50,152 nt of DNA, taken from Gemmatimonadota bacterium. Its GTDB lineage: Bacteria; Gemmatimonadota; Gemmatimonadetes; Gemmatimonadales; GWC2-71-9. Of the stretch, positions 2,441-34,875 are shown in pieces. Position numbers and translations under genes: made by a program. Under the pieces are notes generated by a model. The model was given only the letters and a program-made list of their open reading frames with translations. It was not told where the DNA came from and searched no databases. Within the stretch, counting starts at the first letter, position 1; each line of letters opens with the position of its first letter. Location of the stretch: assembly GCA_041691295.1 (NCBI GenBank), contig JBEPVA010000004.1, positions 1 to 50,152 of the forward strand, read 5' to 3'.

Positions 2441-4798
2441 ATGCTGCTGAATCTTGTCCTGGCGCTGTCCATGCCTGTCGGTGTGCCCGCCGATTCGGTG
2501 CCGCACGCCGACGCCCCGCAGACCTATGATGGCCGAGCCGGGGCGTTGGAAGTCCGTCCGCCGCGGATCGTGGCCCAGCCGGTCATCGATGGCGTGCTCG
2601 ACGAGCCGGTGTGGGCCAGCGCCGACCGACTGGTCGGATTTTCCCAGTACTCGCCCAGCGATGGGGTGGCCGCCTCCGACTCCACCCAGGTGTTGGTCTG
2701 GTACTCCCCCACCGCCATCTACTTCGGCATCCGGGCATTCGAGAGTCACGGCCCGGTCCACGCCACGCTGGCGGACCGGGACAAGATCTTTGCCGACGAC
2801 TACGTCCAGCTGATGCTGGGCACCTTCAACGATGGCCGGCAGGCCATGATGTTCGCGGTCAATCCGCTGGGCGTGCAGGCCGATGGCATCCTGGTCGAGC
2901 GGGGGAATGGAGCGGGCGGCGGCGAGCGTGAACCGGTCGACCTGAGCCCCGATTTCGTGTTCCATTCCAAGGGGCACGTCACCGACTACGGCTACGAAGT
3001 CGAAATCCAGATTCCACTCAAGAGCCTCAGATATCAGTCGGCGGCGGAGCAGACCTGGGGATTGCATGTCCTGAGGACGGTCCAGCACTCGGGATTCGAG
3101 GATTCATGGGCCCCGGCCAGGCGGTCGAGCGCCAGCTTCCTGGGCCAGGCGGGGCAGCTGCAGGGACTCACCGGTTTTCATCGCGGCCTGGTGATGGACG
3201 TGACGCCGGAGGTCACTGGCCGAGCCGATGGCGCTATCCAGAAGAGCGGCAACTGGGGCTACGATGGCAACGGCCCCAACGTCGGCGGTACGGTGCGCTG
3301 GGGCGTGACCAACAGTCTGTCGCTCAATGCCACGGCCAACCCCGATTTTTCCCAGATCGAATCGGACGCCAGCCAGATCAACTTCGATCCCCGGTCGAAC
3401 AACTTCGTGGCGGAGAAGCGGCCCTTCTTTCTCGACGGGCTGGAGCAGTTCAGCACGCCTAACCAGCTGATCTACACCCGCCGCATTGTTCAGCCGATCG
3501 GCGCGCTCAAGTTCACCGGGACCACCGGCGGCACCAACGTTGGGTTCCTCGCCGCGGTGGACAAGACCACGGCCTCGCTGACCGGCAGCCATCCGGACAT
3601 GTTCGCGCTGCGGCTGCAGCAGAACGTCGGGGCCCAGTCCCGCATCGGGCTGGCCACCACCGACCGCCAGGATGGCGACAACTACAACCGGGTCGGCGCG
3701 CTCGATACCCGGCTGGTGTTCGGCAAGATCTACAACCTGGGGCTGCAGGCCGGCGGCAGTGTCACCCGGACCGATGGAGAGACCGTCACCGGCCCCGTCT
3801 GGCAGGGCCGCTTCGTCCGCAACGGTCACACCCTCGGCCTCAACTATGTGTTCAACGGACTGAGCGAGAACTTCTTCGCCCAGAGCGGCTTCATCTCCCG
3901 GCCGGGCATTGCCCATTTCGGACTCGATCACCGGATCTCGGTCTTCGGCCATCAGGGCGGATTCATCGAGCGGGTCGACAACGACGTCCTGTTCGACTGG
4001 ATCTGGAATTATCACGACCTGACCCACGGCAACCGATCGCTCGAACGCAAGAACCACTTCCAGACCACGGCGGGGCTCCGGGGCGGCTGGTCGGTCAGTG
4101 CCGGCGTGTTCATCGAGACGTTCGACTACGACCCCCAGCTGCTGCGCGGCGCCGCGATCGAGCGGCGGGGGCCCGGGGGCACCGTCGATACCGTGCCATT
4201 CCAGCCGGTGCCATCGATCAACAACACCGACTGGCTGCTGCAGGCCGCTACGCCGCAATTCAAGAATTTCTCGGCCAACACCTTCATTCTCTGGGGCAAG
4301 GACGACGATTTCTTCGAGTGGCAGCCCACCAATTTCTTCTTCATCGAGGCCCACACCCAGATCCGGCCCAGCGACCAGTTCCGGATTTCGCTCGACTATG
4401 CCCATATCCAGTACCGGCGCCCGCTCGACGGCAGCCTGGTCGGCCGGTTCCGCATTCCCCGGCTCAAGCTCGAGTACCAGGTGGCGCGGCCCATCTTCGT
4501 CCGCCTGGTCGGCGAATACGTGGCCAGCGAGATCGACAGCCTGCGCGACGATCGCAACGGCGGCGCCGCGATCCTGCTGCCCAATTCCAGCGGGGTCCTC
4601 GAAAAGTCCGTCCCCTACCTGAACAACAGCTTCCGGGTCGACGCGCTGCTGTCGGTGCAGCCCAATCCGGGCACGGTGTTTTTCCTCGGCTACGGCCGGT
4701 TGATGGACGATCCCGAGTCGTTCCGGTTCCGCAACTTGCAGCGGCAGTCGGACGGGTTTTTCCTCAAGATGAGCTACCTGTTTCGGATAGGATCCTGA
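2441..4798 (+). CDS. Exported CBM9-like/DUF5916-type probable outer-membrane protein
   Basis: Signal peptide; IDGVLDEPVW, FAVNPLGVQAD, NPDFSQIESD, EKRPFFLDG; beta-barrel-like C-terminus FFLKMSYLF. Confidence 0.75.
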   Translation: MLLNLVLALSMPVGVPADSVPHADAPQTYDGRAGALEVRPPRIVAQPVIDGVLDEPVWASADRLVGFSQYSPSDGVAASDSTQVLVWYSPTAIYFGIRAFESHGPVHATLADRDKIFADDYVQLMLGTFNDGRQAMMFAVNPLGVQADGILVERGNGAGGGEREPVDLSPDFVFHSKGHVTDYGYEVEIQIPLKSLRYQSAAEQTWGLHVLRTVQHSGFEDSWAPARRSSASFLGQAGQLQGLTGFHRGLVMDVTPEVTGRADGAIQKSGNWGYDGNGPNVGGTVRWGVTNSLSLNATANPDFSQIESDASQINFDPRSNNFVAEKRPFFLDGLEQFSTPNQLIYTRRIVQPIGALKFTGTTGGTNVGFLAAVDKTTASLTGSHPDMFALRLQQNVGAQSRIGLATTDRQDGDNYNRVGALDTRLVFGKIYNLGLQAGGSVTRTDGETVTGPVWQGRFVRNGHTLGLNYVFNGLSENFFAQSGFISRPGIAHFGLDHRISVFGHQGGFIERVDNDVLFDWIWNYHDLTHGNRSLERKNHFQTTAGLRGGWSVSAGVFIETFDYDPQLLRGAAIERRGPGGTVDTVPFQPVPSINNTDWLLQAATPQFKNFSANTFILWGKDDDFFEWQPTNFFFIEAHTQIRPSDQFRISLDYAHIQYRRPLDGSLVGRFRIPRLKLEYQVARPIFVRLVGEYVASEIDSLRDDRNGGAAILLPNSSGVLEKSVPYLNNSFRVDALLSVQPNPGTVFFLGYGRLMDDPESFRFRNLQRQSDGFFLKMSYLFRIGS

Positions 4799-5175
4799 CT
4801 CAGAAGAACTGAACAACACAGAGGCACAGAGGCTTCCCGACACCGGCAAAACCCGAGACGTCAGTTTGGAAATCGCTTTTTTATTCATTAAATGAACCTG
4901 GCTTGACGAACCGGAGGGGGTGAACGCAGGGCACCCTCTGTGCCTCCGTGTTTGAAATGAAGTTGATGATTTGCCTGTTTCGGATAGGATCCTGACTCAG
5001 AAGAACTGAAAAACACAGAGGCACAGAGGCTTCGCGACACCGGCAAAACCCGAGACGTCAGTTTGGAAATCGCCTTTTTATTCATTAAATGAACCTGGCT
5101 TGACGAACCGGAAGCGGTGAACGCAGGGAACCCTCTGTGCCTCCGTGTTTGAAATGAAGTTTCGGATAGAATCCC
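4777..5175. repeat. 197-bp tandem direct repeat (2 copies plus the start of a third), each starting with the 3' end of the upstream gene and containing an internal inverted repeat
   Basis: cctgtttcggataggatcctga at 4777 and 4974; gtttcggatagaatcc at 5159; each unit has aacacagaggcacagagg ... cctctgtgcctccgtgtt. Confidence 0.93.
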
Positions 5176-5224
5176 TCTCCAGCAAATCCTAGATTGTGCC
5201 TCCCAGCTACCCGGAAGGCCATTC

Positions 5225-5704
5225 ATGCAGTATCACATCAGCGGGCTCCCACAGGCGCTTATCGACCAGGTACGCACCACCCACCGCTCTCCCGGTTACG
5301 GCCACCCGGTCCACATCGAGCTCGCCACTGGCACCGGCCCCTGCCGCCAGTGTCTGCAGCCCTTTGCCATCGGCCAGGACCGGCGCATCCTGTTTACCCA
5401 TCGTCCGGTGGCGGATGGCGGCACCATCACTGCACCGGGGCCCGTCTTCATTCACGAGCAGGAGTGCCAGCGCTATGACGCGGCGGCATTTCCAACAGGA
5501 CTGCGGGAATTTCCACTGGCCATCGAGGCGCGGTCGGACCAGAGTCAGGTCCTGGAATGCCGGATCGGATCGGGCCGTGAGGCGGAGCGGATCGTCGCGG
5601 AGTTCCTCGACCGCAAGCCGGTGACCCATCTCTACCTGCGTCACGCCGAGGCGGGGTGTTTCATTGCGCGGGTGGAGCCGGTGGTTGAAGCATCGACGGA
5701 TTGA
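5225..5704 (+). CDS. DUF1203-like protein
   Basis: PCRQCL, GPVFIH..EC, HLYLRHAEAGCF motifs; 159 aa. Confidence 0.7.
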   Translation: MQYHISGLPQALIDQVRTTHRSPGYGHPVHIELATGTGPCRQCLQPFAIGQDRRILFTHRPVADGGTITAPGPVFIHEQECQRYDAAAFPTGLREFPLAIEARSDQSQVLECRIGSGREAERIVAEFLDRKPVTHLYLRHAEAGCFIARVEPVVEASTD

Positions 5705-5772
5705 AGGATTGGGGGGCGCGCGAGAGGTACGTCGTGACCCCACCAATCAGGCAATCCCTCAATCCAACAATT
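5697..5772. repeat. Inverted arrays of 8-nt repeats, (ggattgaa)n ... (caatcc..)n
   Basis: cggattgaaggattgggg ... ccaatcaggcaatccctcaatccaacaat; the left arm contains the upstream stop codon. Confidence 0.65.
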
Positions 5773-5868
5773 TCCTCAGTGCTTGCGTGCATTGCGCCGT
5801 CGGGTAGGTTGGCCCCGGATCGCGCGTCATGGTCCGCCCCGTGGGTTTCCCCATCCAGGCCATTCTCG

Positions 5869-6525
5869 ATGGCCGCTGCACCGCAGGAACTGCAGGATCT
5901 CTTGCAGGCCAACGGCAGCGTCGCCCGCGACGAGGCCTGGGGTCGCTTCGTCAACCGATTCAGCCCCCTCCTGCTGCACACCGCACGATCGGTCGGCCGG
6001 AATCACGACCGGGCCATGGATTGCTACGCCTTTGTGCTGGAGCGATTGCGCGAGGACCGCGGACGCCGGCTTCGAGCATATACCGAGACACCTGGCACCC
6101 AGTTCACCACCTGGCTGGTGGTCGTGGCTCGGCGGCTCTGTCTCGATCATCTGCGCCAGCGGTATGGTCGCGTCGGCGGCGATGCTCCCGCTGAGCGCGA
6201 ACAACTGGTCAATCGGAGGCGGCTGGCGGACCTGATCGCGGTGGAGCTCAGTCCCGAGGACGTCGTGACCAGCCGGGACGAGGGCCCTGACCGGCAACTC
6301 CGCCGCTCCGAATTGATGGCGGCGCTCGACGCGAGCCTCGCCCGGTTGCCGGCCCCGGACCGGCTGCTGCTGGCCCTGCGGTTCGAGGAAGATCTTCCGG
6401 CCCGCGAAATTGCCCGGATCCTCCGCCTGCCCACCCCATTCCACGTTTATCGCGCCATCAACGCCCTCTTGGGCGAGCTGCGCCTCGCGCTCGGACGGCG
6501 GGGAGTCGAAGACGCCCAACCCTGA
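5869..6525 (+). CDS. ECF-type RNA polymerase sigma factor
   Basis: Region 2 AWGRFVNRFSPLL...FTTWLVVVARRLCLDHLR; region 4 LPAPDRLLLALRFEEDLPAREIARIL; start moved to ATG 5869. Confidence 0.85.
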   Translation: MAAAPQELQDLLQANGSVARDEAWGRFVNRFSPLLLHTARSVGRNHDRAMDCYAFVLERLREDRGRRLRAYTETPGTQFTTWLVVVARRLCLDHLRQRYGRVGGDAPAEREQLVNRRRLADLIAVELSPEDVVTSRDEGPDRQLRRSELMAALDASLARLPAPDRLLLALRFEEDLPAREIARILRLPTPFHVYRAINALLGELRLALGRRGVEDAQP

Positions 6526-6635
6526 GAAGATTCGCTCCTCCCCGACTCTGCCCGACCTCCGGTTCCGCAAAATCCGCTGCCGTGTCCGTTTCACCTGATC
6601 ATAGGGCCAGATATCCGGCCTCAACGAGGACTTCC

Positions 6636-7220
6636 ATGTCAGTATCCGAACGTCAGCCTGAGCATCTGGATCCCGGCACCATCGCCGGCTTTCTCGACGG
6701 TGTCCTGACGGACGACCGACGGACGCGCGCTGAGGCGCATCTGGCGGAGTGTCGGGAGTGCCGCGAGGAACTCGTCGAGGTCCAGCGCCTGGTCCAGTCT
6801 CCGCCTCGCCGGCGGTGGGCGCCGCTGGTCCCGCTGGCCGCCGCCGCTGCGGTGTTGCTGCTGATCTGGTCCGGCGGCGGGTCTCGCCACTCGATTGATC
6901 CGCTCACTCGTGACCCCGCCCTGACGGCCACCCTTGCACCGCAGCCGCTGGCGCCGCTCGGCACCGTGTCGCAGGTCGAGCGAATGCAGTGGACCGCTGT
7001 CCCGGGCGTCCTGCACTATCGACTGACGCTCTTCTCCGGTGAGGGCCGGGCCGTCTGGCAGACCACCACCACCGATACCGCAGTGACCCCGCCCGATTCC
7101 GTGCACCTGCTCACCTCGACTCCCTACTACTGGCAGATCAAGGCCGAGACCAGCTACGGCCGCTGGGTGGAATCGGAGCTGGTCGCGTTCACTCTCGCCC
7201 TGCCGGTCTCCCCCCGATGA
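6636..7220 (+). CDS. zf-HC2 transmembrane anti-sigma factor with an extracytoplasmic FN3/Ig-like domain
   Basis: HLAECREC (HxxxCxxC); TM segment PLVPLAAAAAVLLLIW; beta-rich C-terminus; GAGGA RBS before ATG 6636; ATGA overlap with the next gene. Confidence 0.85.
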   Translation: MSVSERQPEHLDPGTIAGFLDGVLTDDRRTRAEAHLAECRECREELVEVQRLVQSPPRRRWAPLVPLAAAAAVLLLIWSGGGSRHSIDPLTRDPALTATLAPQPLAPLGTVSQVERMQWTAVPGVLHYRLTLFSGEGRAVWQTTTTDTAVTPPDSVHLLTSTPYYWQIKAETSYGRWVESELVAFTLALPVSPR

Positions 7221-10200
7221 ATCGGTTGTCGCTGCTCCTGACACTGGGCCTCGCCGGCACGGCGTGGGGGCAGCAGTCCGATCGCGCGCCTAACGCCGAT
7301 GCGGTGACCGACACGATTCCGCCGAGCTGGATCGTCCAGTATCCGGACCATGCCCGCGATTCGATCCGCAGCTGGCTGGCTGCCACTGCTCCGACCGACT
7401 CGGCGGGCGCGGCGGCGCTGCTGGCCCGGGCGGAACAGGTCGGTGCCGACTACGCCCGGGTCTGGGGCGATTCGTTTCCACTGCTGGATGTGCACCGGTT
7501 CGGCCGGTGGTCGCCGGAGCGCCGGGCACAGCGGCTTCGAGCCGACAGCCTCCGCAAGGCGGGGAATGCAGCGCTGGGGCGGGCCGGATTGGCGGCGGCA
7601 CTGGCGGACTGGCGGAAGAGTCTTGCGGTCGCCACCACCCTGGCCGATACCGCGACGATGGCCGCCGCGCTGGGGAACATCGGCGCGGGCTTTTACGGCG
7701 AGGCACGGCTCGACAGTGCCTCGCGCTACTTCATGCTGGCTCGGCGGTTGGCAGGCATCGCCGGGGACGGGCGGACCCGGATGAACGCGGTGGGCGGACT
7801 GGCCTCGGTCAGCAAGGACCGCGGCGAGTATCACGCGGCCACGGTCCAGTACACCGAGGCGCTCGAGCTCAGGCGCCAGATCGGGGACTACCGCGGGGTC
7901 GCGGCCGATGCCAACAATCTCGGCCTGATTGCCGCGGCCACCGGAGACCTGCCCGAAGCCCGGCGCCGTCACACCGAGGCGCTGGTCACAGCGCGGGACC
8001 ATGGCCTCGACGTTCCAGCCGCCGCCGCATTGATCAACCTCGGCGCCCTGGCCAGCAGCCAAGGCGATGACCTCACCGCCGAACGGCGGTATGACGAGGC
8101 CCTGGCGGTGTACCGGCAGCTGGATGATCCCGCCGATCAGGCGCTGGCGCTCCGCAATCTCGGGCTGATCGAGGCTGGCCGCGGCAACTACCCCGCGGCG
8201 GCTGGCCGCTACCGGGCGGCACTGGACATCTTCGCGACCACCGGACCGGTGGAGTCAACCGTCGGTACCCGGCTCGACCTGTCACAGGTCTTCGCGGCAA
8301 TGGGTAGTCTCGACCGCGCCGACCGACAGCTGGGATTGGCTGAGCGGGAGGCTCGCAAGGAAGGACTGAGTCCGGTCACCGAAGGCCGGCTTCGGCTGGC
8401 GCGGGGAGATCTGGCGCTGCAGTTCAATCGGCCGGCGCCGGCCCGGGAATCATATCGCGCCGGCCTGCTGCTGCTCCGCAAGGCCAAGGACCCGGCTGGT
8501 GAAGCCGCGGCGCTCGCCGCACTCGGCTCGCTGAGCCTGATGGAGGAGGACTTCGCGACCGCACGCGAGATGCTCGGATCCGCCGCGGTCCGGCAGCGAT
8601 CCCTCGGTGACGGCCGTTCGGCGGCATTCAACGATCTGCTCGGGGCCAGGGCCACGCTGGCATTGGGCGATACCGACGGCGCCCGCCGGATGGTCGCTAC
8701 CGCAGTCGACACCCTGCGGCACTCTGGCGATCGTATCGCGGTGGCATGGGCCCTCTGCCAGGTCGGTGAGCTCGAGCGCGCGGCGGGGCTGCCGCTCGCC
8801 GCCGAAGCCAGCTATCGCCGTGGACTCGAACGACTGGGTCGGCGTCCGGCGACCGACGTGGCCGTCTGCCTGTACGCGGGCCTCGGGCAGGTTCTGCGTG
8901 CCCGGGGCGCCGGACCGGAGGCGATCGCCGAACTCGAACTCGGAATTGCTGCCGTCGAGCTGGCGGCGGGGCAGGTGAGTGGCGCTGGTCGCCGGGCCGA
9001 TTTCCTGACCGACAAATGGGCGCTCTACACCGACCTTGCCCTGGCCCAGCGCGCCATCGGCCACGATTCCGCCGCCTTTGCCACCAGTGAGCGGCTGCGG
9101 GCTCGGCAAACCCTGGCGCTCATCGCGAGGGGACCGGGCGCCGCGCCGTTGGCTGCGGCTGAACCTCCACGCCTCTCGGCGCTCCGGCACCAGATCACCG
9201 GCCTGATGGACCTGTCGACCGCGCACGAAACCCCCGTGGCGCTGCGCGGCCCCGATGCACTCGAGCAGCTGCCCAACCGACGGCGTGAAGCGCTGACCCA
9301 GGCAGAGGACGCCTATGCGGCGCTGCTCGACTCACTCGAGGGCGCCGGCGGAACCCGGACCCCTGTCGTGGCAACGGCGCCTCCGTCCTGGCATGCCATC
9401 GCGGCCCGCCTGCCTGCCGACGAGGTGCTGATCGAGTACCTGGTCACCGACTCGGCCGCCGTCGCCTTTGTCATCGGGTCGGGTCGCCTCACCGCGGTCG
9501 ATCTGCCGGTGAGTGGAGCCGAGCTGACCACGGAGGTGGACTTCGTCAGGGGAACCCTCGCGGCCACGCGGACTGCCCGGGGCGGTTTTCCCTGGCAGGC
9601 GCCTTTGCGCCGATTGCAATCACAATTGATCGCCCCGATTGAAGCGGCCGGGCTGCTCCGTGACAAGCACCGGCTGTTGATCGTGCCGCAGCGCGAACTG
9701 CACTACTTCCCCTTTGCGGCGCTGCTGGGGAGTGGGGCACCGGAGCAGTACCTGATTCAGCGATTCGACATTGGCTATGTCTCCTCGGCGGCGGTCTGGC
9801 TCACGCTGACCTCCCGAGCCCCCACGTCGCAATCCGGTGGGCTGCTGGCGCTGGCGCCGCGCCAGGCCGATCTCCCCGGCGCCAGCGCCGAGGTGGCCGC
9901 CATCGCGGCGCTGTACGGCTCCGATGCCACCGTGCTCACCGGCGATCGGGCCACCAGCCAGGCCCTGGCCGCCGCGGCTCCCAACCGTTCGATCATCCAC
10001 CTCGCCTCGCTGGGCGTGCTCAACAAACACAACCCGCAGTTCTCTTACGTCGCGCTGGCGCCCGGCGGTGGCAGCGATGGACGGCTTGAGGTCCACGACG
10101 TCGCGCGGCTCAGCCTCAACGCTCGGCTGGTGGTGCTCAGCGCCTGCCAGACGGGACTCGGCTCGGGTCGGGTGGCCGACGTGCCGCCGGGGGATGACTG

Positions 10201-10432
10201 GGTGGGGCTGGTGCAGGCTTTCCAGTCGGCCGGGGCGCGAAACGTACTGGCCACACTGTGGCCGGTGGACGACCGGGCCACGGCGGAGTTGATGAAGCGG
10301 TTCTACGCCGAGCTTCGAACGGGCAAGTCAGAAGTGGCGGCCTTGGCGATGGCTCAACGCGGCACTCTCAGCAGTTCACAGTCGCTGTCTCCGTTCTACT
10401 GGGCGGGGTTTGTCATGGATGGAGGACTATGA
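7217..10432 (+). CDS. Exported TPR-repeat plus CHAT (caspase/HetF-like) domain protein
   Basis: Signal peptide; TPR repeats (ALGNIG, ANNLG, LINLG, LRNLG); CHAT motifs LLIVPQRELHYFPFAAL, LVVLSACQTG, LWPVDD, PFYWAGFV. Confidence 0.92.
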   Translation: MNRLSLLLTLGLAGTAWGQQSDRAPNADAVTDTIPPSWIVQYPDHARDSIRSWLAATAPTDSAGAAALLARAEQVGADYARVWGDSFPLLDVHRFGRWSPERRAQRLRADSLRKAGNAALGRAGLAAALADWRKSLAVATTLADTATMAAALGNIGAGFYGEARLDSASRYFMLARRLAGIAGDGRTRMNAVGGLASVSKDRGEYHAATVQYTEALELRRQIGDYRGVAADANNLGLIAAATGDLPEARRRHTEALVTARDHGLDVPAAAALINLGALASSQGDDLTAERRYDEALAVYRQLDDPADQALALRNLGLIEAGRGNYPAAAGRYRAALDIFATTGPVESTVGTRLDLSQVFAAMGSLDRADRQLGLAEREARKEGLSPVTEGRLRLARGDLALQFNRPAPARESYRAGLLLLRKAKDPAGEAAALAALGSLSLMEEDFATAREMLGSAAVRQRSLGDGRSAAFNDLLGARATLALGDTDGARRMVATAVDTLRHSGDRIAVAWALCQVGELERAAGLPLAAEASYRRGLERLGRRPATDVAVCLYAGLGQVLRARGAGPEAIAELELGIAAVELAAGQVSGAGRRADFLTDKWALYTDLALAQRAIGHDSAAFATSERLRARQTLALIARGPGAAPLAAAEPPRLSALRHQITGLMDLSTAHETPVALRGPDALEQLPNRRREALTQAEDAYAALLDSLEGAGGTRTPVVATAPPSWHAIAARLPADEVLIEYLVTDSAAVAFVIGSGRLTAVDLPVSGAELTTEVDFVRGTLAATRTARGGFPWQAPLRRLQSQLIAPIEAAGLLRDKHRLLIVPQRELHYFPFAALLGSGAPEQYLIQRFDIGYVSSAAVWLTLTSRAPTSQSGGLLALAPRQADLPGASAEVAAIAALYGSDATVLTGDRATSQALAAAAPNRSIIHLASLGVLNKHNPQFSYVALAPGGGSDGRLEVHDVARLSLNARLVVLSACQTGLGSGRVADVPPGDDWVGLVQAFQSAGARNVLATLWPVDDRATAELMKRFYAELRTGKSEVAALAMAQRGTLSSSQSLSPFYWAGFVMDGGL

Positions 10433-12327
10433 ACATCGGAGTCACTGGGATGCGAGACGGTGAATGGAGCGAATGGTCCCTCGGGCGGCGAAGCGCGCTA
10501 CCGCTGGTGATCGGCCTGGCCACAGTGCTCGGCTGCTCCGATGCGGGATTCTCACCGCGGAACGGCGGGGTGGCGGCGGCATTCGTCTCAGCGCCGATGC
10601 ACCGGTCCGGCTCCATTGGGCAATTGGGGATTGGCCCACAAAGCGATTCGACCCGGGTCTACGTCTCGATGTCCCCCGGCAGGATCCCTTCACTCACTCG
10701 GGTCACGGTTGAGAACACCAGGAATGGCGCGGTCGTGACCCCGGTAGTCGCCGAGGGGGGATTCGATCCGGTAGCGATCACGGGAGAAATCGGAGACACC
10801 CTTCGCGTGGCAATGGAATGGGGCAATGGCCAGGACTCGACGGACGTAGTTCCAGTCCCTCGGCGATCGAGTCCCCGGGTGGTGCGGACCAGTCCTCCCG
10901 ATCACAAGACCGATGTGCCACTCAACATGGTGGTCCGGGTCGTGTTCAGTCAGCCGATGGATTCAAGCAGCCTGCTCCCGGCCGTCACCTTGAGTCTGCA
11001 CGGTCAGCTCATCGCTGGAACGGTGCATCCAGTGGTCGACGCGCGTGGCCAGGTGCTCGAGGCCACCCTGGTTCCGCACGATCCGCTCGCCGCTGGTTCT
11101 TCCTATCAGCTGGGGGTCAGTACGCTCGCGCACGGTCTGAATGACGAAGCGCTGGCCACCGCGGTGCAAGCGGCCTTTGCCACCGTGCCACGAAGCCAAT
11201 TGGTCTTTGCGGTCGGCCCCAAGGACCATTTTTTCGGCCAGGGCTTACCGATTGAGGTTGAGGTCCAGAATCAGTTCGGGCAGGCCGCCGTCGATTTCAA
11301 CGATTCCGTGAGCCTCGCGCTGGAGGCGGACCTGCCGTCGAACCATCTCTTCGGGACTCGCACGGTGGCGGCGTTCCACGGTGTGGCCGTATTCGGCGAT
11401 CTCACCATCGATTCGGTTGGCGCGGGGTACAGGCTCACCGCCTCCGCGCCTGGATTGAGCCAGATCCGAAGCGCCGCCTTTTCGGTCTGCGTGCAACCGT
11501 GCTGGGTGAAGCGGGCCGCGCTGGTACCCGAACGGCAAGGCATCGCCATGGGCGCGGTAGCGGGTCGGATCTATGCGATTGGCGGAACCTCGCGCACAGG
11601 CTGGCCAGCCGAAGTTGCCATCTATGATCCGGTGGCCGATCGATGGAGTCTCGGCGCGCCAATGCCAACCCCTCGCACCAGCCCGGCGGTGGCCAGCCTC
11701 GGGGGCCTGCTCTACACGGTGGGCGGAGAATCACGGACGGGAATGACCACCGTCCTCGAAGTGTACGATCCTGCCACCGATCGCTGGACGACCAGGGCAC
11801 CCATGCTGACAGCCCGGAAGGGACTGGGTCTCGGGGTGGTGAACGGCATTCTCTACGCGATTGGCGGTTACATCGTCGGTGGCTTGAGTCTGACCGCTGT
11901 CGAGGCATACGACCCGGTGACCGATCGCTGGTCCGCCCGGGCGCCATTGCCATTCGCCCGCGACGGCTTCGGCGTCGGGGTCGTCAATGGGGTCCTCTAT
12001 GCGGTGGGAGGCAGTTCGGGCTTCGAGCCGGACTTTGTCCAGGCCTACGATCCCGTCGCCGATCGCTGGACGACAGTGGCCCCAATGCCGCTGCTGTCAG
12101 GTGGTGATGTGTCGGTGGCAGTCATCGGAGGGACGGTCTATGCCGCAGAGGGCAGCCCCGACGGCGTGACCATGGACAAGGTCTGGGTCAATGCGTATGA
12201 CCCGCCCACTGATCACTGGACGACGCAACCCGCAGCTCCGCTGCTCAGTGGCCGGCTCGGCCAGGTGGGCGTGGTCGACAGCACCCTCTACGTCGTCGGA
12301 CGACAGACCCAGGCCTTCCACCCATGA
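10429..12327 (+). CDS. Lipoprotein with SbsA/Big_5-like and Ig-like domains plus a Kelch propeller
   Basis: ATGA-coupled to the CHAT gene; lipobox VLGC; TSPPDHKTDVP...VFSQPMD; about six Kelch repeats (YAIGG...YDPVxDRW). Confidence 0.85.
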   Translation: MNIGVTGMRDGEWSEWSLGRRSALPLVIGLATVLGCSDAGFSPRNGGVAAAFVSAPMHRSGSIGQLGIGPQSDSTRVYVSMSPGRIPSLTRVTVENTRNGAVVTPVVAEGGFDPVAITGEIGDTLRVAMEWGNGQDSTDVVPVPRRSSPRVVRTSPPDHKTDVPLNMVVRVVFSQPMDSSSLLPAVTLSLHGQLIAGTVHPVVDARGQVLEATLVPHDPLAAGSSYQLGVSTLAHGLNDEALATAVQAAFATVPRSQLVFAVGPKDHFFGQGLPIEVEVQNQFGQAAVDFNDSVSLALEADLPSNHLFGTRTVAAFHGVAVFGDLTIDSVGAGYRLTASAPGLSQIRSAAFSVCVQPCWVKRAALVPERQGIAMGAVAGRIYAIGGTSRTGWPAEVAIYDPVADRWSLGAPMPTPRTSPAVASLGGLLYTVGGESRTGMTTVLEVYDPATDRWTTRAPMLTARKGLGLGVVNGILYAIGGYIVGGLSLTAVEAYDPVTDRWSARAPLPFARDGFGVGVVNGVLYAVGGSSGFEPDFVQAYDPVADRWTTVAPMPLLSGGDVSVAVIGGTVYAAEGSPDGVTMDKVWVNAYDPPTDHWTTQPAAPLLSGRLGQVGVVDSTLYVVGRQTQAFHP

Positions 12328-12491
12328 GCAGAATCAGCGTTGTCCGGGGGCTGCGCATCAGCGCGCTCATCCTCGCAGCGGGGTGCTCGGACGCGGTGGC
12401 GCTGGCCGTTGCCCAGCAGTACGCGATCGACGGCGCAGCGTTCCGGTCACCGTTCTACTGGGCGGGGTTCGTGCTGGATGGGAGTCTCTGA
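12324..12491 (+). CDS. 55-aa chimeric ORF: lipoprotein signal peptide fused to a copy of the CHAT C-terminal tail
   Basis: Translated by hand: MSRISVVRGLRISALILAAGCSDAVALAVAQQYAIDGAAFRSPFYWAGFVLDGSL*; ATGA overlap with the upstream stop; below the ORF-track size cutoff; could be a remnant. Confidence 0.6.
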   Translation: MSRISVVRGLRISALILAAGCSDAVALAVAQQYAIDGAAFRSPFYWAGFVLDGSL

Positions 12492-12510
12492 CGTGAGGAA
12501 GGATACGATC

Positions 12511-14094: not shown

Positions 14095-14165
14095 ACGCGC
14101 TCGAGACGGCCGGTCCGAATCCATCACCCGGTTCAACCCCGCGGGGCACTCATTCAGAAGGTCGT

Positions 14166-16031: not shown

Positions 16032-16086
16032 CCTGGCGGGCCAACTCACTCGCGACTGCAACCCAATTCTCGGAGGCATTGAGCCC

Positions 16087-17568: not shown

Positions 17569-17710
17569 AGGATTGTCGGATTGATGGATTGAAGGATTGG
17601 TGGGATCGTGCGGCGTGACTCGTCCTCCCTCGAATCCGACAATCCTTCGATCCGGAAATCTCATTCTTGGTCGATGGTCGAGAGTCGTAAATCGTGGGTC
17701 GGGGGTCGCT
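17567..17710. repeat. Inverted 8-nt repeat arrays followed by a 7-nt (ggtcga.)n array
   Basis: gaaggattgtcggattgatggattgaaggattgg ... gaatccgacaatccttcgatcc; then ggtcgatggtcgagagtcgtaaatcgtgggtcgggggtcg. Confidence 0.7.
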
Positions 17711-17721
17711 GGATCGCCGTA

Positions 17722-17819
17722 TCGTCCCGAACGGAGTGAGGGACCTCAACCAGGTCGTTCGTCCTCGGAGTTCGCGACGTGCCTTGAGTGGTTGAGATCC
17801 CTCGCGGGGCTCGGAGCGA
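17722..17819. repeat. REP-like inverted repeat pair
   Basis: tcgtcccgaacggagtgagggacctcaacc ... ggttgagatccctcgcggggctcggagcga; imperfect arms of about 30 bp. Confidence 0.6.
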
Positions 17820-17880
17820 CACCCGGATGGCACTGCGCCGGCTACAGTTTGTTCGAAGGTCGCGAGTCGCGAGTGGCAAG

Positions 17881-17974
17881 ATCGCCTTTCGTCAGCCTGA
17901 CCACTTCGGGCGTCGGGGTGGTCAATGGGGTGCTGTATGTACCGGGCTTCCCCACGTCGGCGTTTCAGCCTTAG
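17881..17974 (+). pseudogene. Orphan copy of the Kelch gene 3' tail
   Basis: SPFVSLTTSGVGVVNGVLYVPGFPTSAFQP* versus SPLVGGLARWGVGVVNGVLYVPGRPATLAFQP* at 15933-16031; identical run gggcgtcggggtggtcaatggggtgctgtatgt. Confidence 0.88.
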
Positions 17975-18052
17975 GGCCGAGTGACCAACAGCTGGGTGAT
18001 AGGCCAACGGATGGTTTGATCGTTGGATAGATGTGCTGGCTCCACCGATTCG

Positions 18053-18220
18053 ATGAACTCGACCCATCGGCTGGAGTACAACGGCGGTCTGCGCTGACAG
18101 GATGTCTGGCTCAGTCACCCGGCGGGATTCGGGAACCGGGTCATCGTGAACGGCCGCATCGTTCCCAATGGCCAGCGGACGTTCTAGGCAGCGGGCCACT
18201 GTCCCCACCTGGGTCACTGA
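18053..18220 (+). pseudogene. Degenerate paralogous copy of the beta-helix lipoprotein C-terminus
   Basis: NSTHRLEYNGGLR*QDVWLSHPAGFGNRVIVNGRIVPNGQRTF*AAGHCPHL versus NSTYRVRLGGDIEWSDAWFSNPVGFGNTLVVDGHTIPNGTRQFYSEETCPGL; stops at 18095 and 18185 align with W and Y. Confidence 0.85.
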
Positions 18221-18223
18221 GCT

Positions 18224-18306
18224 GGTCGGATGGGCGGAACCCTGGTAGGACTGCGCCTTGACCTGGTATCGCGAGTTGAGTCTCGCCCGTCCGCCCGTCC
18301 GCCCCC
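18224..18306. repeat. Inverted 8-nt repeats (cgcccgtc)n at a gene end
   Basis: ggtcggatgggcgga ... cgcccgtccgcccgtccgcc abutting the stop of 18307-18756. Confidence 0.5.
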
Positions 18307-31241: not shown

Positions 31242-31292
31242 CGGGAAGGGAGGGGGGGACCATTGTTCCCCTCCTCCCTCCTCCTTTCTCCG
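31242..31292. repeat. Purine/pyrimidine inverted short-repeat hairpin
   Basis: cgggaagggaggggggga ... tccccctcctccctcctcctttctccg. Confidence 0.45.
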
Positions 31293-31324
31293 CTTGACGT
31301 CACTCCACTTAATTCACCCACCTG

Positions 31325-33547
31325 ATGTCCTCCCCCTACCGCCCTTCCCCCATCCAGCGCCAGACGCTGTTCAGCGTGGTGCTGCTGCTCGGCATCGTGG
31401 CCAGTCTGGTGGTCATCGCCGCGGTGGGGTTCGAAACCCTGTCGTCGGCGCGGGCCTACGTCGGAGGTGAGGGCCTGTGGTCCAAGGCGCAGAAGGATGC
31501 GGTCTACTACCTGCTGCGCTACTCGGAGAGTCACGATTCCGCCGAATACTCGGCCTTCGAGCGTGATCTGCTGGTACAGGCCGGGGACCGGGCCGCTCGC
31601 CTGGAGCTCGACAAGCCCAGTCCCGATGCAGAGATCGTTCGCCAAGGGTTTCTGCAGGGCCGCAATCATCCAGAGGACCTGGCCGGGATGGAGCGATTCT
31701 ATCGCCGATTCGGGCGGGTGAGGTATGTCGCCCAGGCCATCGGAATCTGGACCGAGGCCGACACCGTCATCACTGAGCTCCATGGACTGGGGGCCCAGCT
31801 ACGGCATGAGATCGAGAGCCCCCGTCCCGATGACAACCGGATCCACCAGATCCGGATCGAGATTTACGCCGTCAATCTCCGGCTGACCAGGCTGGAGGAC
31901 TCGTTCTCGGGGGCCATGGGCATGGGCGCTCGCTGGGCCGAGCAGGTGCTGTTGATCCTGACCGCGAGCGTCGCGGGGCTGCTGCTGCTGGTGGCCATGC
32001 TGGGTTTGCGCTACCAGGCTGGCCGCCTGCAGGCCGCCGAGGATTCCCGGCGGGCCAGCGAGGAACAGCTGGGGGCGCTGGTGCAGCGGGCCCAGTTCGG
32101 CATCATCCGCTCGGCCGTCGATGGCGCAGTCCTCAGCGCCAACCCCGCGCTGGTGCGGATGCTCGGCTATGACACCGAGACCGAAGTCCTTGCCCTCGAC
32201 CTCGGCCGCGACGTCTACGCCAATCCGGCTGATCGGCCGCGGCTGCCGGACCAGGTGGCCAACGACTCAGTTTCGGGGGCGGAGGTGGAGTGGAAGCGGA
32301 AGGGTGGCGGCTCGGTCCAGGTCCGGCTGCACGGCCGGCTGGTGGGTGCCACCGGATCCGGCGCCCCCACCATCGAAGCCTTTGTCGAGGACGTGACCCA
32401 GCAGCGGGTGATGGAGGCCCAGCTGCGCCAGGCCCAGAAGATGGAAGCCGTCGGGCAGCTGACCGGCGGGCTGGCCCATGATTTCAATAATCTGCTGAGC
32501 GTCATCCTGTCGACCGCCAACCTGATCGCCGATGAACTGCCGCCCGGCGCCGCCCAGGCCAGGATCGACCTGGGCGCGCTGCAGCAGGCTGCCAGGCGGG
32601 GGGGCGCGATGATCCGGAAGCTGCTCGCCTTCAGCCGCGCGGACCAGCTGCAGTTCCGGCCTTACCTGCTCTCCCCGCTGGTGGAGGCCAATGCAATGGT
32701 GCTGCGCCGGCTGCTGCCGGCCAGCATCGAGATCGTGGTGGCCTCCGATCCGGATACGCCGACCATCCGAACCGATCCCTCGGCCCTTGAGCAGATCCTG
32801 CTTAACCTGGCCACCAACGCGCGCGACGCGATGCCCGGCGGCGGCACGCTGCGGATCATGACTGGAGCCGCACCGGCCGTCGACGGGGTCCGGCTGCACG
32901 GAGCCATCATCACCGTGAGTGATACGGGCACCGGGATGACGGAGGCGGTCCGGCAGCGCTACTTCGAGCCGTTCTTCACCACCAAACCGATTGGCGAAGG
33001 CACCGGCCTGGGTACCGCGATGATCTTTGGCCTGGTCAAGCAGCACGGCGGGCAGGTGGAGGTGGAGAGCGCGCCGGGCAAGGGCACCACGGTCACCATC
33101 CTGCTGCCGATCGTCGATGGGCTGGTGGCAAGTCCCCTGGAGGAAGAATCACGCGAGGTCCTGCCCGCGGGAGAGGGTACCATCCTGCTCGCCGAGGATG
33201 AGCCCCAGCTCCGCAGCTCGGCGCGGCGGATCCTCGAGCGGTTCGGCTACCGGGTGCTACCGGCGGCGGATGGCAATGAAGCGCTGGCGCTGTACCTCCG
33301 GTGGAAGGATCAGATCGACCTCATCATCACCGACGTGGTTATGCCGGGAATGGGCGGAGCCGCCCTGCTGGCGGAACTGGAGCGGCTGGGCTCGCGGATT
33401 CCGGTCCTGATCACCAGCGGATACACCGCCAGCGATCCGGACGGAGGGGTGCAGTTGCCGGACGGACTGCCATTCCTGCCCAAGCCGTGGGATGCGGCAG
33501 AGTTGCTGGCCAGTATCAGGGAAACGATCGAGCGCAGCCGGGGGTGA
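31325..33547 (+). CDS. Membrane hybrid histidine kinase (periplasmic sensor, PAS, kinase, receiver)
   Basis: Two TM segments flanking a [17 protein letters not shown] domain; [29 protein letters not shown]. Confidence 0.93.
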
Positions 33548-33652
33548 CTCCCCAAGATTGCAGACGGCTCCCCCTCGAGCCGTGTGCCCGTATTGCTGTT
33601 TTGCGGGTCGAACGGAATTCGATGCTTTTCAATGACCTTGGAATGGTGCGCA

Positions 33653-34660
33653 ATGCGAATCCAGAATCCGCTGCCGGTGGCGCTGCTGCTGATTGGCTCG
33701 GCCTGCGGTGGTGGAAGCGGTACCCCTTCACCCAGTATTGAAATCAGCAAGGCATCGCCGAGTGGAGACAGTCAGCACGTGGCACCATTTTCTACCGCGC
33801 CACAGCCGCTCCGGGTCAAAGTCACGAAGGATGGGGCTCCATGGGCGGGGCAGCCGGTACTGTGGATCCCCTCCCGCGATGCGGGCGTCGCCGGCAATAG
33901 CGTGACGGACGCCGACGGCATCGCGACCAGCTCCGTGTCGTCGGGCGATCAGGCAGGGACGGACACCGTAAATGCGACGTTGAACATCCACGGGCTTGCT
34001 TCAACCCCGCGGTTCCTTCTCTTCGTCGATCCGGGGCCAGCCGAGGCGCTTCGGTTTGTCGTCTCGCCATCCAACGTGATTCACGGAGGGGTGTTGGCAC
34101 CCGGGGTTCAGGTGGCGGTGATTGATCATGGTGGCAATACCGTGACCACTGCGGTGGGCGACATCACCCTGGTCATCACAGCCAATCCGAATCACGGAGC
34201 TCTGACTGGCGGTGGGCCCATCAGCGCAGTGAACGGCGTTGCCACATTTCCCGCCATGTCGATCGACTCCATTGGCGATGGATACACCGTGACCGCGTCC
34301 GCGGTGGCAGTGACTTCAATCACCAGTGCTGTCTTCAGTGTCACCGCGACGCCACCACTGGCCAGCGCGATCAGCGTGACCGTCGGGACCGGCCTTCGAT
34401 TCCGCAGTGTGCGGAACGGCACCGCCAACCCTGCGGTCGATACGCTGGCGGTCGGCGGCACCGTTACCTGGAACAAGGCGGGCGGCTCCCACAACGTGAC
34501 GTCGACCGGCGCTCCGAGCTTCCCCAGCAGTTACGGAAGCGCCTCGTCCCTCATCCCGATGGGCACCTCCTATGCGGCGACCTTCAACACCGCGGGCACC
34601 TATCACTACGATTGTGGCATCCATGGAACCGACATGACCGGCCGGGTGATCGTGAAATAG
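33653..34660 (+). CDS. Lipoprotein with Ig-like domains and a C-terminal cupredoxin domain
   Basis: Lipobox GSAC; type-1 copper ligands GSHNV...YDCGIHGTDMTG. Confidence 0.82.
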   Translation: MRIQNPLPVALLLIGSACGGGSGTPSPSIEISKASPSGDSQHVAPFSTAPQPLRVKVTKDGAPWAGQPVLWIPSRDAGVAGNSVTDADGIATSSVSSGDQAGTDTVNATLNIHGLASTPRFLLFVDPGPAEALRFVVSPSNVIHGGVLAPGVQVAVIDHGGNTVTTAVGDITLVITANPNHGALTGGGPISAVNGVATFPAMSIDSIGDGYTVTASAVAVTSITSAVFSVTATPPLASAISVTVGTGLRFRSVRNGTANPAVDTLAVGGTVTWNKAGGSHNVTSTGAPSFPSSYGSASSLIPMGTSYAATFNTAGTYHYDCGIHGTDMTGRVIVK

Positions 34661-34691
34661 CCCCGGCTCCGCGATCGCTGGGCCGGACATG

Positions 34692-34720
34692 ACAGAGGCG
34701 TCCCTTCGGGACGCCTCTGT
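34692..34720. terminator. Perfect 13-bp hairpin after the first cupredoxin lipoprotein
   Basis: acagaggcgtccc-ttc-gggacgcctctgt. Confidence 0.55.
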
Positions 34721-34747
34721 AGTCATCTCGAACGCAGGGGCGTCTGC

Positions 34748-34875
34748 ATACCGCCAGGGACCCCGATGGAGCGGTGCAGTTGCCGGACGGACTGCCATTC
34801 CTGCCCAAGCCGTGGGATGCGGCAGAGCTGCTGGCCAGTGTAAGAGAAACGATAAGCCGGAGTCAGGACATTTGA
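34748..34875 (+). pseudogene. Orphan copy of the histidine kinase 3' tail
   Basis: [41 protein letters not shown] versus [40 protein letters not shown]; more than 50 identical nt (33448 versus 34773). Confidence 0.92.

What the first reader, a model, noticed from the sequence alone, without database searches (positions are those of the whole stretch)
4768..34875. Recurrent displaced 3' gene tails: a candidate cassette-accretion mechanism at gene ends
Seen: five times the last 20-170 nt of a gene, with its stop codon, reappears downstream after an intervening segment. These are the DUF5916 tail (4777 copied at 4974, partly at 5159), CHAT tail (about 10335-10432 copied at 12395-12491), Kelch tail (15933-16031 copied at 17881-17974), beta-helix tail (about 17398-17568 copied at 18053-18220) and kinase tail (33421-33547 copied at 34748-34875). 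In the CHAT, Kelch and kinase cases, what follows the displaced tail is a diverged paralog, or a remnant of one, of the gene following the live tail. Inference: new alleles of downstream surface-protein cassettes integrate through homology in the anchor gene's 3' end, restore it, and push the old tail and old cassette downstream. This resembles homology-facilitated illegitimate recombination or polymorphic-cassette stacking, with no integrase in the window.
Basis: partly seen in the sequence, partly recalled or inferred. Interest (0 to 1): 0.85.

Follow-up and report, generated by a model that had tools for sequence, protein, structure and literature searches.

The report
Displaced gene tails mark cassette insertions
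Short leftover copies of gene ends in this soil or sediment bacterium mark places where an extra gene was slotted in behind a resident gene by recombination in that gene's last ~100 bases, a pattern known from bacterial toxin loci but seen here at ordinary genes.

Summary
Orphan 3' tails of the CHAT, Kelch, beta-helix and hybrid-kinase genes are real. The beta-helix tail shows at protein level only. The DUF5916 item is a plain 197-nt tandem repeat.

The kinase case can be resolved. Two congeneric genomes and an independent metagenome contig carry one cupredoxin-lipoprotein cassette and no duplicated tail. The window carries an extra 1221 bases: new last codons of the kinase, a new spacer, cassette B and a hairpin. 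A 104-nt direct repeat brackets them. The relative's tail matches the live copy to the left of 33503-33515 and the orphan copy to the right. That is a recombination joint inside the tail.

Identity falls from 91% to background at both block edges. B is not sister to B' (AU p 0.004). Simple tandem duplication followed by drift is therefore excluded.

A second case lies on contig C77: a BrnT toxin-antitoxin insert behind a Ser/Thr kinase, with a 98-nt repeat. Its spacing is also exactly 1325 nt, which is unexplained.

The CHAT, Kelch and beta-helix tails sit in a 13.4-kb hypervariable island. There, duplication plus decay cannot be excluded.

The nearest precedent is C-terminal displacement at Rhs, CdiA and T6SS loci. 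Verdict: partly supported, a new variant of a known kind.

The parts
2441..4798 (+). DUF5916 gene. It forms the left border of the variable island.
   Evidence: Pfam PF19313, E 5e-14. Orthologues in G001, G002 and G003 end at the same place.
4768..5174 (+). 197-nt tandem repeat: 2 copies at 95.4% identity plus 13-16 nt of a third. Each unit is the last 31 nt of DUF5916 plus a spacer with a long imperfect hairpin.
   Evidence: The unit occurs nowhere else in the genome.
4809..18234 (.). 13.4-kb variable island. It holds DUF1203, an ECF sigma factor, a zf-HC2 anti-sigma factor, a TPR-CHAT protein, four lipoprotein cassettes and three orphan tails.
   Evidence: The island is absent in G001 and G003, where DUF5916 abuts the EF-P flank. 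G002 carries different content at the same site.
7217..10432 (+). TPR-CHAT gene. Its stop overlaps the start of L1 in an ATGA.
   Evidence: Pfam CHAT, E 6e-64. Sequence read.
10429..12327 (+). Cassette L1, a lipoprotein with Big_5 and Kelch domains. Its N-terminal half resembles L2 and its C-terminal half resembles K2.
12324..12491 (+). 55-codon ORF. A lipoprotein-type signal peptide is fused in frame to the orphan CHAT tail (12372-12491). Its start overlaps the L1 stop in an ATGA.
   Evidence: Pfam CHAT positions 249-289 of 289, E 7e-4, below the curated cut-off.
12511..14094 (+). Cassette L2, a Big_5 lipoprotein.
14160..16031 (+). Cassette K2, a Kelch-propeller lipoprotein.
16087..17568 (+). 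Cassette BH, a lipoprotein that is probably a right-handed beta-helix.
   Evidence: No Pfam hit. Atlas feature hits to NosD/Beta_helix clusters score 0.93-0.94, which is a lead only.
17843..17974 (+). Orphan Kelch tail. It covers K2 residues 579-623 and has its own stop and no internal stops.
18053..18211 (+). Orphan beta-helix tail. It covers BH residues 438-489 and has two in-frame stops. It matches G002 BH* at 51% of 53 aa (55.8% of 43 aa) against 44% of 52 aa to its own BH.
31325..33547 (+). Hybrid histidine kinase with PAS, HisKA, HATPase_c and receiver domains. This is the anchor gene.
   Evidence: Orthologues are 94% aa identical in G002 and 70% in G001.
33425..33528 (+). Live copy of the 104-nt tail block.
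33529..34749 (+). 1221-nt segment present only in the G000 type. It holds the new last 6 codons and stop of the kinase, a new spacer, cassette B and a hairpin region.
   Evidence: The segment is absent from G002, from G001 and from a 5774-nt contig of run X4. It has no second copy in the genome.
33653..34660 (+). Cassette B, a cupredoxin-domain lipoprotein. Its start is uncertain (33632-33653).
   Evidence: Pfam Copper-bind. It is 58.7% aa identical to B'. The best other database relative is 60% identical.
34692..34720 (+). Perfect 13-bp stem-loop behind B, 29 nt before the orphan tail.
34750..34875 (+). Orphan kinase tail: the 104-nt block (34750-34853) plus the old last codons and the old stop (34873-34875).
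   Evidence: Downstream of the block it continues the G002 gene end at 109 of 120 nt.
34982..35995 (+). Cassette B', the resident cupredoxin lipoprotein. It is the orthologue of the single G002 cassette.
   Evidence: 80.4% aa identical to G002. Clade support 100/98.

Best explanation
The orphan tails are scars of cassette accretion anchored in the last ~100 nt of an upstream gene.

A DNA segment carried three things: a homologous copy of that gene's 3' end, its own different last codons, and one or more downstream genes. It recombined with the resident tail. The upstream gene stayed whole with a partly new end. The resident tail became a promoterless fragment behind the newcomer, still followed by the resident spacer and cassette.

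A single reciprocal crossover with a circularised or tandem donor segment gives exactly this product. So does ordinary double crossover with a donor that already had the array.

Shown: the extra segment, its sharp edges, the switch of parentage inside the tail block, and the non-sister status of B and B'.

Inferred: the direction (gain in G000 rather than loss in G002), the form of the donor molecule, and that the older CHAT, Kelch and beta-helix tails arose the same way.

The DUF5916 repeat is a separate thing: slippage-type tandem duplication of a 3' spacer.
For: Collinearity. G002 is collinear at about 92% nt. Window 22217-33528 matches L001 20000-8690. Window 34750-35994 matches L001 8793-7552. 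The two matches overlap on the same 104 nt of G002. G001 also has one cassette.

Parentage switch. Before the block, live against G002 is 114/120 and orphan against G002 is 72/120. After the block, orphan against G002 is 109/120 and live against G002 is 72/120. Of the 9 live/orphan differences, G002 agrees with the live copy at 5 of the 6 sites up to block position 79. It agrees with the orphan at all 3 sites from position 91.

Identity profile. Identity is 92-97% within the block and 45-60% in the adjoining spacer and cassette.

Cassette relations. B to B' is 58.7% aa and B' to G002 is 80.4% aa. B lies outside the B'+G002 clade. Forcing B and B' together is rejected (AU p 0.0036).

Read evidence. 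An X1 contig covers 33473-34802 with 0 differences and spans B into the orphan tail. X2 and X3, from another study, hold kinase-B or B stretches with 4-5 differences. An X4 contig at about 92% identity joins 33503 to 34829, which is the single-cassette form.

Second case on C77. A 98-nt block is 98% identical between copies. The insert carries a BrnT toxin (E 5e-28) and has 60% GC against 65% in the flanks. It is absent in G001 and G002. The G002 alignment runs through the orphan copy into the downstream DNA, but stops 4 nt after the live copy.

Kelch pair. The tail is 79% nt identical, while the beta-helix remnant is 54% nt identical to BH.
Against: Direction is not proven. Deletion between the two tail copies in the G002 lineage would give the same mosaic. 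B branches after the G001 split, so G001's single cassette does not count against an older duplication.

No donor was found. The best database relative of B is 60% identical. Two collection scans found no close locus.

The nine differences avoid a central run of 55 nt (P about 0.001 if spread evenly). This points to gene conversion between the copies, or to a strongly conserved stretch.

On C77 both copies carry G000-type states, so no donor/recipient mosaic is visible there.

For the CHAT pair, tail and cassette divergence are similar: 51% against 42% aa.

The contigs laid include one that spans the whole extra segment from inside one tail block to inside the other (33473-34802). I infer a loop in the assembly graph, which by itself does not distinguish an integrated copy from a circle plus an empty site.
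Confidence: 0.55

Rival explanations
1. Old tandem duplication of tail plus cassette. The tail copies were later kept alike by gene conversion from the live gene while the cassettes diverged. G002 then lost the first cassette by recombination between the tails.
For: The mosaic is symmetrical for gain and loss. A central run of 55 identical nt fits conversion. B falls inside the clade that postdates G001, so only one loss is needed. Direct repeats of about 100 nt are substrates for deletion (general knowledge).
Against: The C77 insert is a lower-GC toxin-antitoxin module absent in both G001 and G002, where gain is the simpler reading. Conversion would have to stop within a few nt at both block edges. 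The run X4 relative also has the single form.
Confidence: 0.2
2. Plain tandem segmental duplications whose left breakpoint fell inside the upstream gene, followed by ordinary divergence and deletional decay of one copy.
For: This fits the CHAT-L1-L2 arrangement, where the tail is 51% aa and the cassettes 42% aa identical. The signal-peptide head fused to the CHAT tail at 12324-12491 looks like a duplication joint. G002 carries beta-helix then Kelch before the flank, so an ancestral (Kelch, beta-helix) x2 array is possible.
Against: It is excluded for the kinase pair. Identity drops from over 91% to background at both edges. B and B' are not sisters. The neutral orphan tail is far better kept than the spacer beside it. 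For the Kelch pair the tail is 79% nt identical but the cassette remnant 54%.
Confidence: 0.15
3. Site-specific integration of small integrase-less cassettes by a recombinase encoded elsewhere. The tail blocks would be att sites, as for cis-mobilisable elements at gene 3' ends.
For: Direct repeats of about 100 nt bracket both clean inserts and restore the target gene. Both units measure exactly 1325 nt.
Against: The genome has only 3 tyrosine-recombinase matches, none on C4 or C77. The two blocks and the two inserts share no sequence: the best match between the units is 12 nt at E 0.098. The anchor genes differ.
Confidence: 0.05
4. Assembly artefact: two strains' alleles chained in one contig, or a small circle wrongly threaded into the chromosome.
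For: The genome is a 354-contig metagenome bin. The contigs include one spanning the whole extra segment, which I read as a loop in the assembly graph. Summed depth over B is about 1.4 times that of the flanks in X1, although the tool warns that this depth is unreliable.
Against: The junction from the hairpin region into the orphan tail is unique sequence, present in an independently built contig with 0 differences. Two bubble arms could not be chained without it. The orphan block differs from the live one at 9 sites. A 1.3-kb circle has no replication gene.
Confidence: 0.05

Closest known systems
C-terminal displacement and orphan module arrays at Rhs, CdiA and T6SS effector-immunity loci
   Same: A new 3' module enters through homology in the conserved upstream part of a gene. 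The old 3' end and its partner gene are shifted downstream. Orphans keep a stretch homologous to the upstream gene. Homology-facilitated illegitimate recombination is the proposed route, with no integrase required. I read passages of PMC5361080 and PMC4927057. Jackson 2009 and Poole 2011 are known to me only through those papers' citations and from recall.
   Different: No toxin or immunity genes are present. The anchors are a hybrid histidine kinase, a CHAT protease-like protein, a Kelch lipoprotein and a Ser/Thr kinase. Only the last 6-11 codons of the anchor change. The variable part is a separate downstream gene: lipoproteins in the window and a toxin-antitoxin pair on C77.
Integrative elements that target and restore the 3' end of tRNA or protein genes, including tandem accretion of ICE and CIME elements (recalled, not searched)
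   Same: The element carries a replacement 3' end. A displaced 3' fragment lies at its far side. Repeated events stack.
   Different: There is no recombinase in or beside the inserts. The inserts measure only 1.2 kb. There is no common core sequence.
Campbell-type insertion-duplication by a single crossover of a circular DNA that carries a gene's 3' end (a laboratory method, recalled)
   Same: It gives exactly this product: an intact upstream gene, the insert, then a headless tail copy, with reciprocal parentage on either side of the crossover.
   Different: Here it would be a natural event. How the circle or donor array forms is unknown.
Long-period non-coding tandem repeats
   Same: This describes the DUF5916 item: head-to-tail 197-nt units.
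   Different: In this genome such arrays favour gene 3' ends and sometimes take in the last codons.

Membership tests
C-terminal displacement / orphan-module arrays (Rhs, CdiA, T6SS E-I) | A conserved upstream gene part, with a variable 3' end plus partner gene that differs between close relatives. | tested here: met
   The kinase is 94% aa identical between G000 and G002. Its last codons, the spacer and the cassette content differ.
C-terminal displacement / orphan-module arrays (Rhs, CdiA, T6SS E-I) | The displaced old 3' end lies downstream and keeps a stretch homologous to the upstream gene. | tested here: met
   104-nt block at 91.3% identity in the window. 98-nt block at 98% identity on C77.
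C-terminal displacement / orphan-module arrays (Rhs, CdiA, T6SS E-I) | The variable module is a toxin domain with a cognate immunity gene. | tested here: not met
   Pfam finds Copper-bind, Big_5 and Kelch domains, or nothing, in the window cassettes. Only the C77 insert holds a toxin (BrnT), and that is a separate toxin-antitoxin pair and not a gene tip.
Integrase-mediated island at a gene 3' end (ICE, CIME, genomic islet) | A tyrosine or serine recombinase in or next to the element. | tested here: not met
   PF00589 matches only on C72, C270 and C49. No such domain appears among the 34 window and locus ORFs and ORF fragments scanned. Serine recombinase families were not searched genome-wide.
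Integrase-mediated island at a gene 3' end (ICE, CIME, genomic islet) | A shared att core between independent insertions. | tested here: not met
   The two 1325-nt units share at most 12 identical nt (E 0.098).
Plain tandem segmental duplication | The two copies are each other's closest relatives and are evenly diverged along the unit. | tested here: not met
   This is for the kinase locus: the identity profile, the tree and the AU test at p 0.0036. The group was named after I had seen the tree, and B sits on a long branch.
Plain tandem segmental duplication | The same test applied to the CHAT-L1-L2 and Kelch/beta-helix units. | tested here: inconclusive
   CHAT tail 51% aa against L1/L2 42% aa. 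Kelch tail 79% nt against beta-helix remnant 54% nt. No relative shows the empty state.
Homology-facilitated illegitimate recombination | One homologous anchor and one illegitimate joint at microhomology. | tested here: inconclusive
   The anchor block is present. The left joints show no clear microhomology. Without the donor sequence this cannot be judged.
Non-coding tandem repeat (DUF5916 item) | Head-to-tail copies with no unique DNA between them. | tested here: met
   Period 197, 2.0 copies, 96% matches.

The most novel reading that the evidence does not exclude
This Gemmatimonadota lineage has a general process, free of any integrase, that adds single-gene or few-gene cassettes behind ordinary genes. 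It would work through about 100 nt of 3'-end homology, perhaps via size-defined circular intermediates, since both clean units measure exactly 1325 nt. If so, the C-terminal displacement known from polymorphic toxin loci would be one face of a wider way of building variable surface-protein and toxin-antitoxin loci.
Probability: 0.12. Interest if true: 0.8.

Novelty: new variant of a known kind. Interest (0 to 1): 0.55.

Why it matters
If the reading holds, the scar left by homology-anchored accretion is not peculiar to toxin and immunity loci. The scar is an intact gene, a newcomer, then a headless copy of the gene's tail. It could serve as a general marker for finding recent gene gains, and their order of arrival, in genomes that lack integrases or insertion sequences at the site.

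It also shows that lipoprotein loci in an uncultured soil and sediment lineage turn over between species that are 92% identical. That bears on how surface variation is generated there.

The practical value is modest until more genomes show how common the scar is.

Tried and rejected

Search for a donor. The search for related loci with B in genome contigs gave 1 locus at 36% identity. With the four-cassette alignment in metagenome contigs it gave 80 loci. None of them matched B, B', the kinase or the downstream gene at 45% identity or more over 150 aa or more. The search for homologous proteins returned 33 proteins at E 1e-20 or better among 8000 scored candidates, and the best non-self hit was 60% identical. 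No donor was found.

Is the signal-peptide head at 12324-12392 the head of a neighbouring cassette? Local nucleotide alignment against six cassette heads scored at most 20, so no support.

N-terminal remnants between the beta-helix stop and the orphan Kelch tail, or before the orphan beta-helix tail: none found at relaxed thresholds.

A displaced DUF5916 tail at the far end of the island: none.

The promoter and terminator scan of 33200-36200 found 0 promoter-like sites and 1 terminator-like site, no more than in shuffles. It says nothing about a promoter inside the tail.

Contig C12 16384-16509, listed as a tail hit, looks like the end of a frameshifted tandem paralogue. I did not count it. 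The C103 hits belong to a small gene family and were not counted either.

A self-repeat scan of all 92 fetched loci (559 kb) found no further tail-type pair apart from C77.

Parts of the window without contig cover in runs X2 to X4 are not used as evidence.

Depth figures are not used for copy number.

Supplementary files of the two papers were not available. The supplementary trees of PMC5361080 might bear on how often such arrays carry gene-end fragments.

Full report
SETTING. The window is the whole of contig C4 of a 354-contig, 3.93-Mb metagenome bin with 66% G+C. Names attached to database relatives point to Gemmatimonadota, which is a lead only. I made crude gene calls with a codon-usage score: 3652 calls covering 90% of the genome. 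Stop codons in these calls are exact. Start codons are approximate.

THE OBSERVATION. Self-blastn, pairwise alignment and six-frame reading confirm the kinase tail (33425-33528 and 34750-34853, 104 nt, 91.3%). They also confirm the Kelch tail (15925-16031 and 17874-17974, 79.4%) and a 36-nt core of the CHAT tail (10387-10422 and 12446-12481, 89%).
- At protein level the CHAT match runs over 39 residues to the stop, at 51% identity.
- The beta-helix tail is seen only as protein: 52 residues at 44% identity, with two in-frame stops in the copy at 18053-18211.
- The DUF5916 item is different. Copies at 4768-4964 and 4965-5161 lie head to tail at 95.4% identity, and the first 13-16 nt of a third copy follow. 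The unit holds only the last 31 nt of the gene.

What follows each orphan tail is a paralogue, or a remnant of one, of the gene behind the live tail. L2 matches L1 at 42% over 230 aa. The beta-helix remnant follows the Kelch tail. B' matches B at 58.7%. All six cassette proteins start with a signal peptide and a cysteine lipobox. I read this from the translations and recognised the pattern from general knowledge.

THE KINASE LOCUS. The same-genus genome G002 is collinear with the window at about 92% nt. Window 22217-33528 matches L001 20000-8690. Window 34750-35994 matches L001 8793-7552 at 82.6%. Window 36767-44260 matches L001 7488-1.
- The first two matches overlap on one 104-nt stretch of G002. 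G002 therefore has one tail and one cassette, the orthologue of B' (80.4% aa).
- The more distant congener G001 (72-81% nt across the aligned pieces of this locus) also has one cassette.
- The window thus carries 1221 extra bases (33529-34749). They hold six new last codons and a stop for the kinase, an unrelated spacer, cassette B, and 89 nt with a perfect 13-bp hairpin.

Numbers:
- In the 120 nt before the block, live against G002 is 114/120 and orphan against G002 is 72/120.
- In the 120 nt after the block, orphan against G002 is 109/120 and live against G002 is 72/120.
- Inside the block the two copies differ at 9 sites. G002 sides with the live copy at 5 of the 6 sites up to block position 79. 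It sides with the orphan at all 3 sites from position 91.

One switch of parentage between 33503 and 33515 explains the pattern. This is what a single reciprocal crossover between the resident tail and a homologous tail on the incoming segment leaves behind. The reverse event, deletion between two tail copies in the G002 lineage, leaves the same pattern.

WHY NOT SIMPLE DUPLICATION. Identity is 92-97% in the block and 45-60% in the spacer and cassette on either side. A non-coding tail copy cannot stay at 91% while the spacer next to it drifts to background, so the block and its surroundings have different histories. In a tree of 17 cassette proteins, B sits outside the B'+G002 clade (support 100/98) on a long branch. 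Forcing B and B' together costs 16.9 log-likelihood units (AU p 0.0036). I named that group after seeing the tree, and long branches are involved. B has no second copy in the genome. Its best relative among 5.8 billion database proteins is 60% identical. It is a divergent allele of the same family, and its source is unsampled.

IS THE ASSEMBLY SOUND? Contigs of four public runs were laid on 16001-36000.
- Run X1 is probably the source. A 1330-nt contig covers 33473-34802 with no differences, so it spans B, the hairpin and the start of the orphan tail.
- Runs X2 and X3 come from another study. They hold kinase-tail-B stretches (33448-34093 and 33302-34103, with 4 and 5 differences). X2 also holds the stretch from the orphan tail into B' (34860-35188, 0 differences).
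- Run X4 holds a relative at about 92% identity. A 5774-nt contig joins 33503 directly to 34829, which is the single-cassette form.

The unique junction cannot come from chaining two strain alleles. I read the X1 contig that runs from one tail block to the other as a loop in the assembly graph, so contigs alone cannot exclude a mixture of filled and empty sites.

A SECOND CASE. The genome-wide searches turned up contig C77. Behind a Ser/Thr kinase gene (C77 9848-11230) a 98-nt block (11100-11197) recurs at 12425-12522 with 2 differences.
- The DNA between the copies has 60% G+C against 65% in the flanks.
- It encodes a BrnT toxin (Pfam E 5e-28), a short ORF behind it, and a 152-aa ORF.
- G002 and G001 lack the insert. 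The G002 alignment runs from the orphan block straight into the downstream DNA, while the alignment through the live block stops 4 nt after it.
- The architecture is therefore the same: new last codons (11 here), the cargo, then the old tail with the old end.
- Both copies carry G000-type states, so no donor mosaic is visible.

The start-to-start spacing is exactly 1325 nt, the same as at the kinase locus. The two units share no sequence. I cannot explain this and treat it as a coincidence to be tested.

THE ISLAND. Window 4809-18234 is missing in G001 and G003, where DUF5916 is followed within about 60-130 nt by the EF-P flank. G002 has a different island at the same site:
- a DUF1203 gene (71% aa);
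- a TonB-dependent-receptor-like gene;
- a BTAD-TPR gene;
- then a beta-helix gene (56% aa to BH);
- a Kelch gene (64.5% aa to K2);
- and the flank (88% nt from window 18235).

G003 carries a related sigma, anti-sigma, CHAT and lipoprotein island elsewhere in its genome. No orphan CHAT tail was detected there at E 1e-3.

In the window the order is K2, BH, orphan Kelch tail, orphan beta-helix tail, flank. The orphan Kelch tail stands where G002 has its intact last Kelch gene. The orphan beta-helix tail matches the G002 beta-helix at 51% of 53 aa (55.8% of 43 aa) and the G003 one at 56% of 41 aa, against 44% of 52 aa to its own BH. These scars are old. The pattern fits accretion, but a (Kelch, beta-helix) x2 array eroded by deletions fits as well.

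The CHAT tail lies in a 55-codon ORF. That ORF begins with a lipoprotein signal peptide, overlaps the L1 stop in an ATGA, and ends 19 nt before L2. It could be a duplication joint. It may also still be translated.

HOW COMMON. I ran tblastn of 3250 solid gene calls against 1791 non-genic stretches. This gave 139 places, of which 21 lie within 6 kb of the parent gene: 11 tails, 5 heads, 3 internal and 2 full-length.
- After inspection I accept as orphan tails the 4 in this window and the one on C77, which was scored 'internal' because its last 10 residues differ.
- I rate at most 2 or 3 of the 5 head rows as possible orphan heads.
- At nucleotide level, 53 local direct-repeat pairs were found, and 29 are purely non-coding. 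Only the two 1325-nt pairs link a gene's 3' region to distant non-coding DNA.

There is no genome-wide excess. There is clustering in variable loci.

TRF finds 21 loci with a period of 50 nt or more. Of the 13 outside genes, 7 lie at or within 60 nt of a gene's 3' end and 1 lies near a 5' end. The DUF5916 repeat belongs to this class.

COMPARISON WITH WHAT IS KNOWN. Passages of PMC5361080 describe successive insertion of effector-immunity modules in Vibrio T6SS clusters. Homology-facilitated illegitimate recombination is proposed as the route, and the 3' end of the old effector is shifted back. The paper cites the same idea for Rhs 'C-terminal displacement'. Passages of PMC4927057 say that displaced cdiA-CT/cdiI modules trail cdi loci. 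They also say that many orphans keep sequence homologous to the upstream cdiA. The topology here is the same. The content is not: no toxin tips and no immunity genes, ordinary signalling genes as anchors, and lipoproteins or a toxin-antitoxin pair as cargo. Integrase-driven islands at gene 3' ends also leave displaced tails (recalled). However, there is no recombinase on these contigs and no shared core.

VERDICT. It remains open for three older scars and is wrong for the DUF5916 repeat. It is a new variant of a known kind of process, of moderate interest. The identical 1325-nt unit length is the one truly odd point.

Noticed in passing
window 33425/34750 and G000 contig C77 11100/12425: The two clean tail-duplication units have exactly the same start-to-start spacing, 1325 nt. 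Yet their sequences and cargo are unrelated: a cupredoxin lipoprotein against a BrnT toxin-antitoxin module. No other local repeat pair in the genome has this spacing.
   Followed up: partly
G000 contig C77 11198-12424 (locus L090 4199-5425): A G000-specific 1.2-kb insert behind a Ser/Thr kinase gene. It carries a BrnT toxin gene, a likely antitoxin ORF and a 152-aa ORF with a weak HepT-like match (E 1e-4, below cut-off). Its G+C is 60% against 65% in the flanks.
   Followed up: partly
window 35996-36766: A further 0.77-kb stretch lies between B' and the convergent downstream gene. It is absent from both G002 and G001. It holds a 151-aa ORF (36199-36654) with a sub-threshold COX1 match. No flanking tail repeat was seen.
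   Followed up: partly
window 2181-2232, 2308-2357, 5692-5771, 17566-17660, 28709-28746: Short intergenic repeat and hairpin elements built from heptamer-like units (of the GAGTCGA type) recur many times in G000 and in G001 to G003. The stretch 17569-17668 folds into a long hairpin (z -4.5). They look like a REP-like family of this genus.
   Followed up: partly
G000 contigs C71, C76, C106, C206, C214 and window 4768-5174: Long-period non-coding tandem repeats in this genome sit mostly at gene 3' ends: 7 of the 13 loci outside genes, against 1 near a 5' end. Several take in the last 3-31 nt of the gene, so short orphan stop-codon regions are produced by slippage alone.
   Followed up: partly
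window 10429-12327: Cassette L1 is a domain mosaic. Residues 30-252 match L2 (42%) and residues 238-632 match K2 (44%). This suggests recombination between cassettes.
   Followed up: no
window 12324-12491: The orphan CHAT tail is the C-terminus of an intact 55-codon ORF with a lipoprotein signal peptide. The ORF is ATGA-coupled to the L1 stop and is followed after 19 nt, which include a GAGGAAGGA stretch, by the L2 start. It may still be translated and may couple L2 translation.
   Followed up: no
locus L006 (G003:C3) 11420-13171: The related CHAT-lipoprotein island of G003 contains 307-316-nt repeats just upstream of its third lipoprotein gene: an adjacent pair at 90% identity and a second pair 822 nt apart at 84%. 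I did not examine whether they include gene ends.
   Followed up: no
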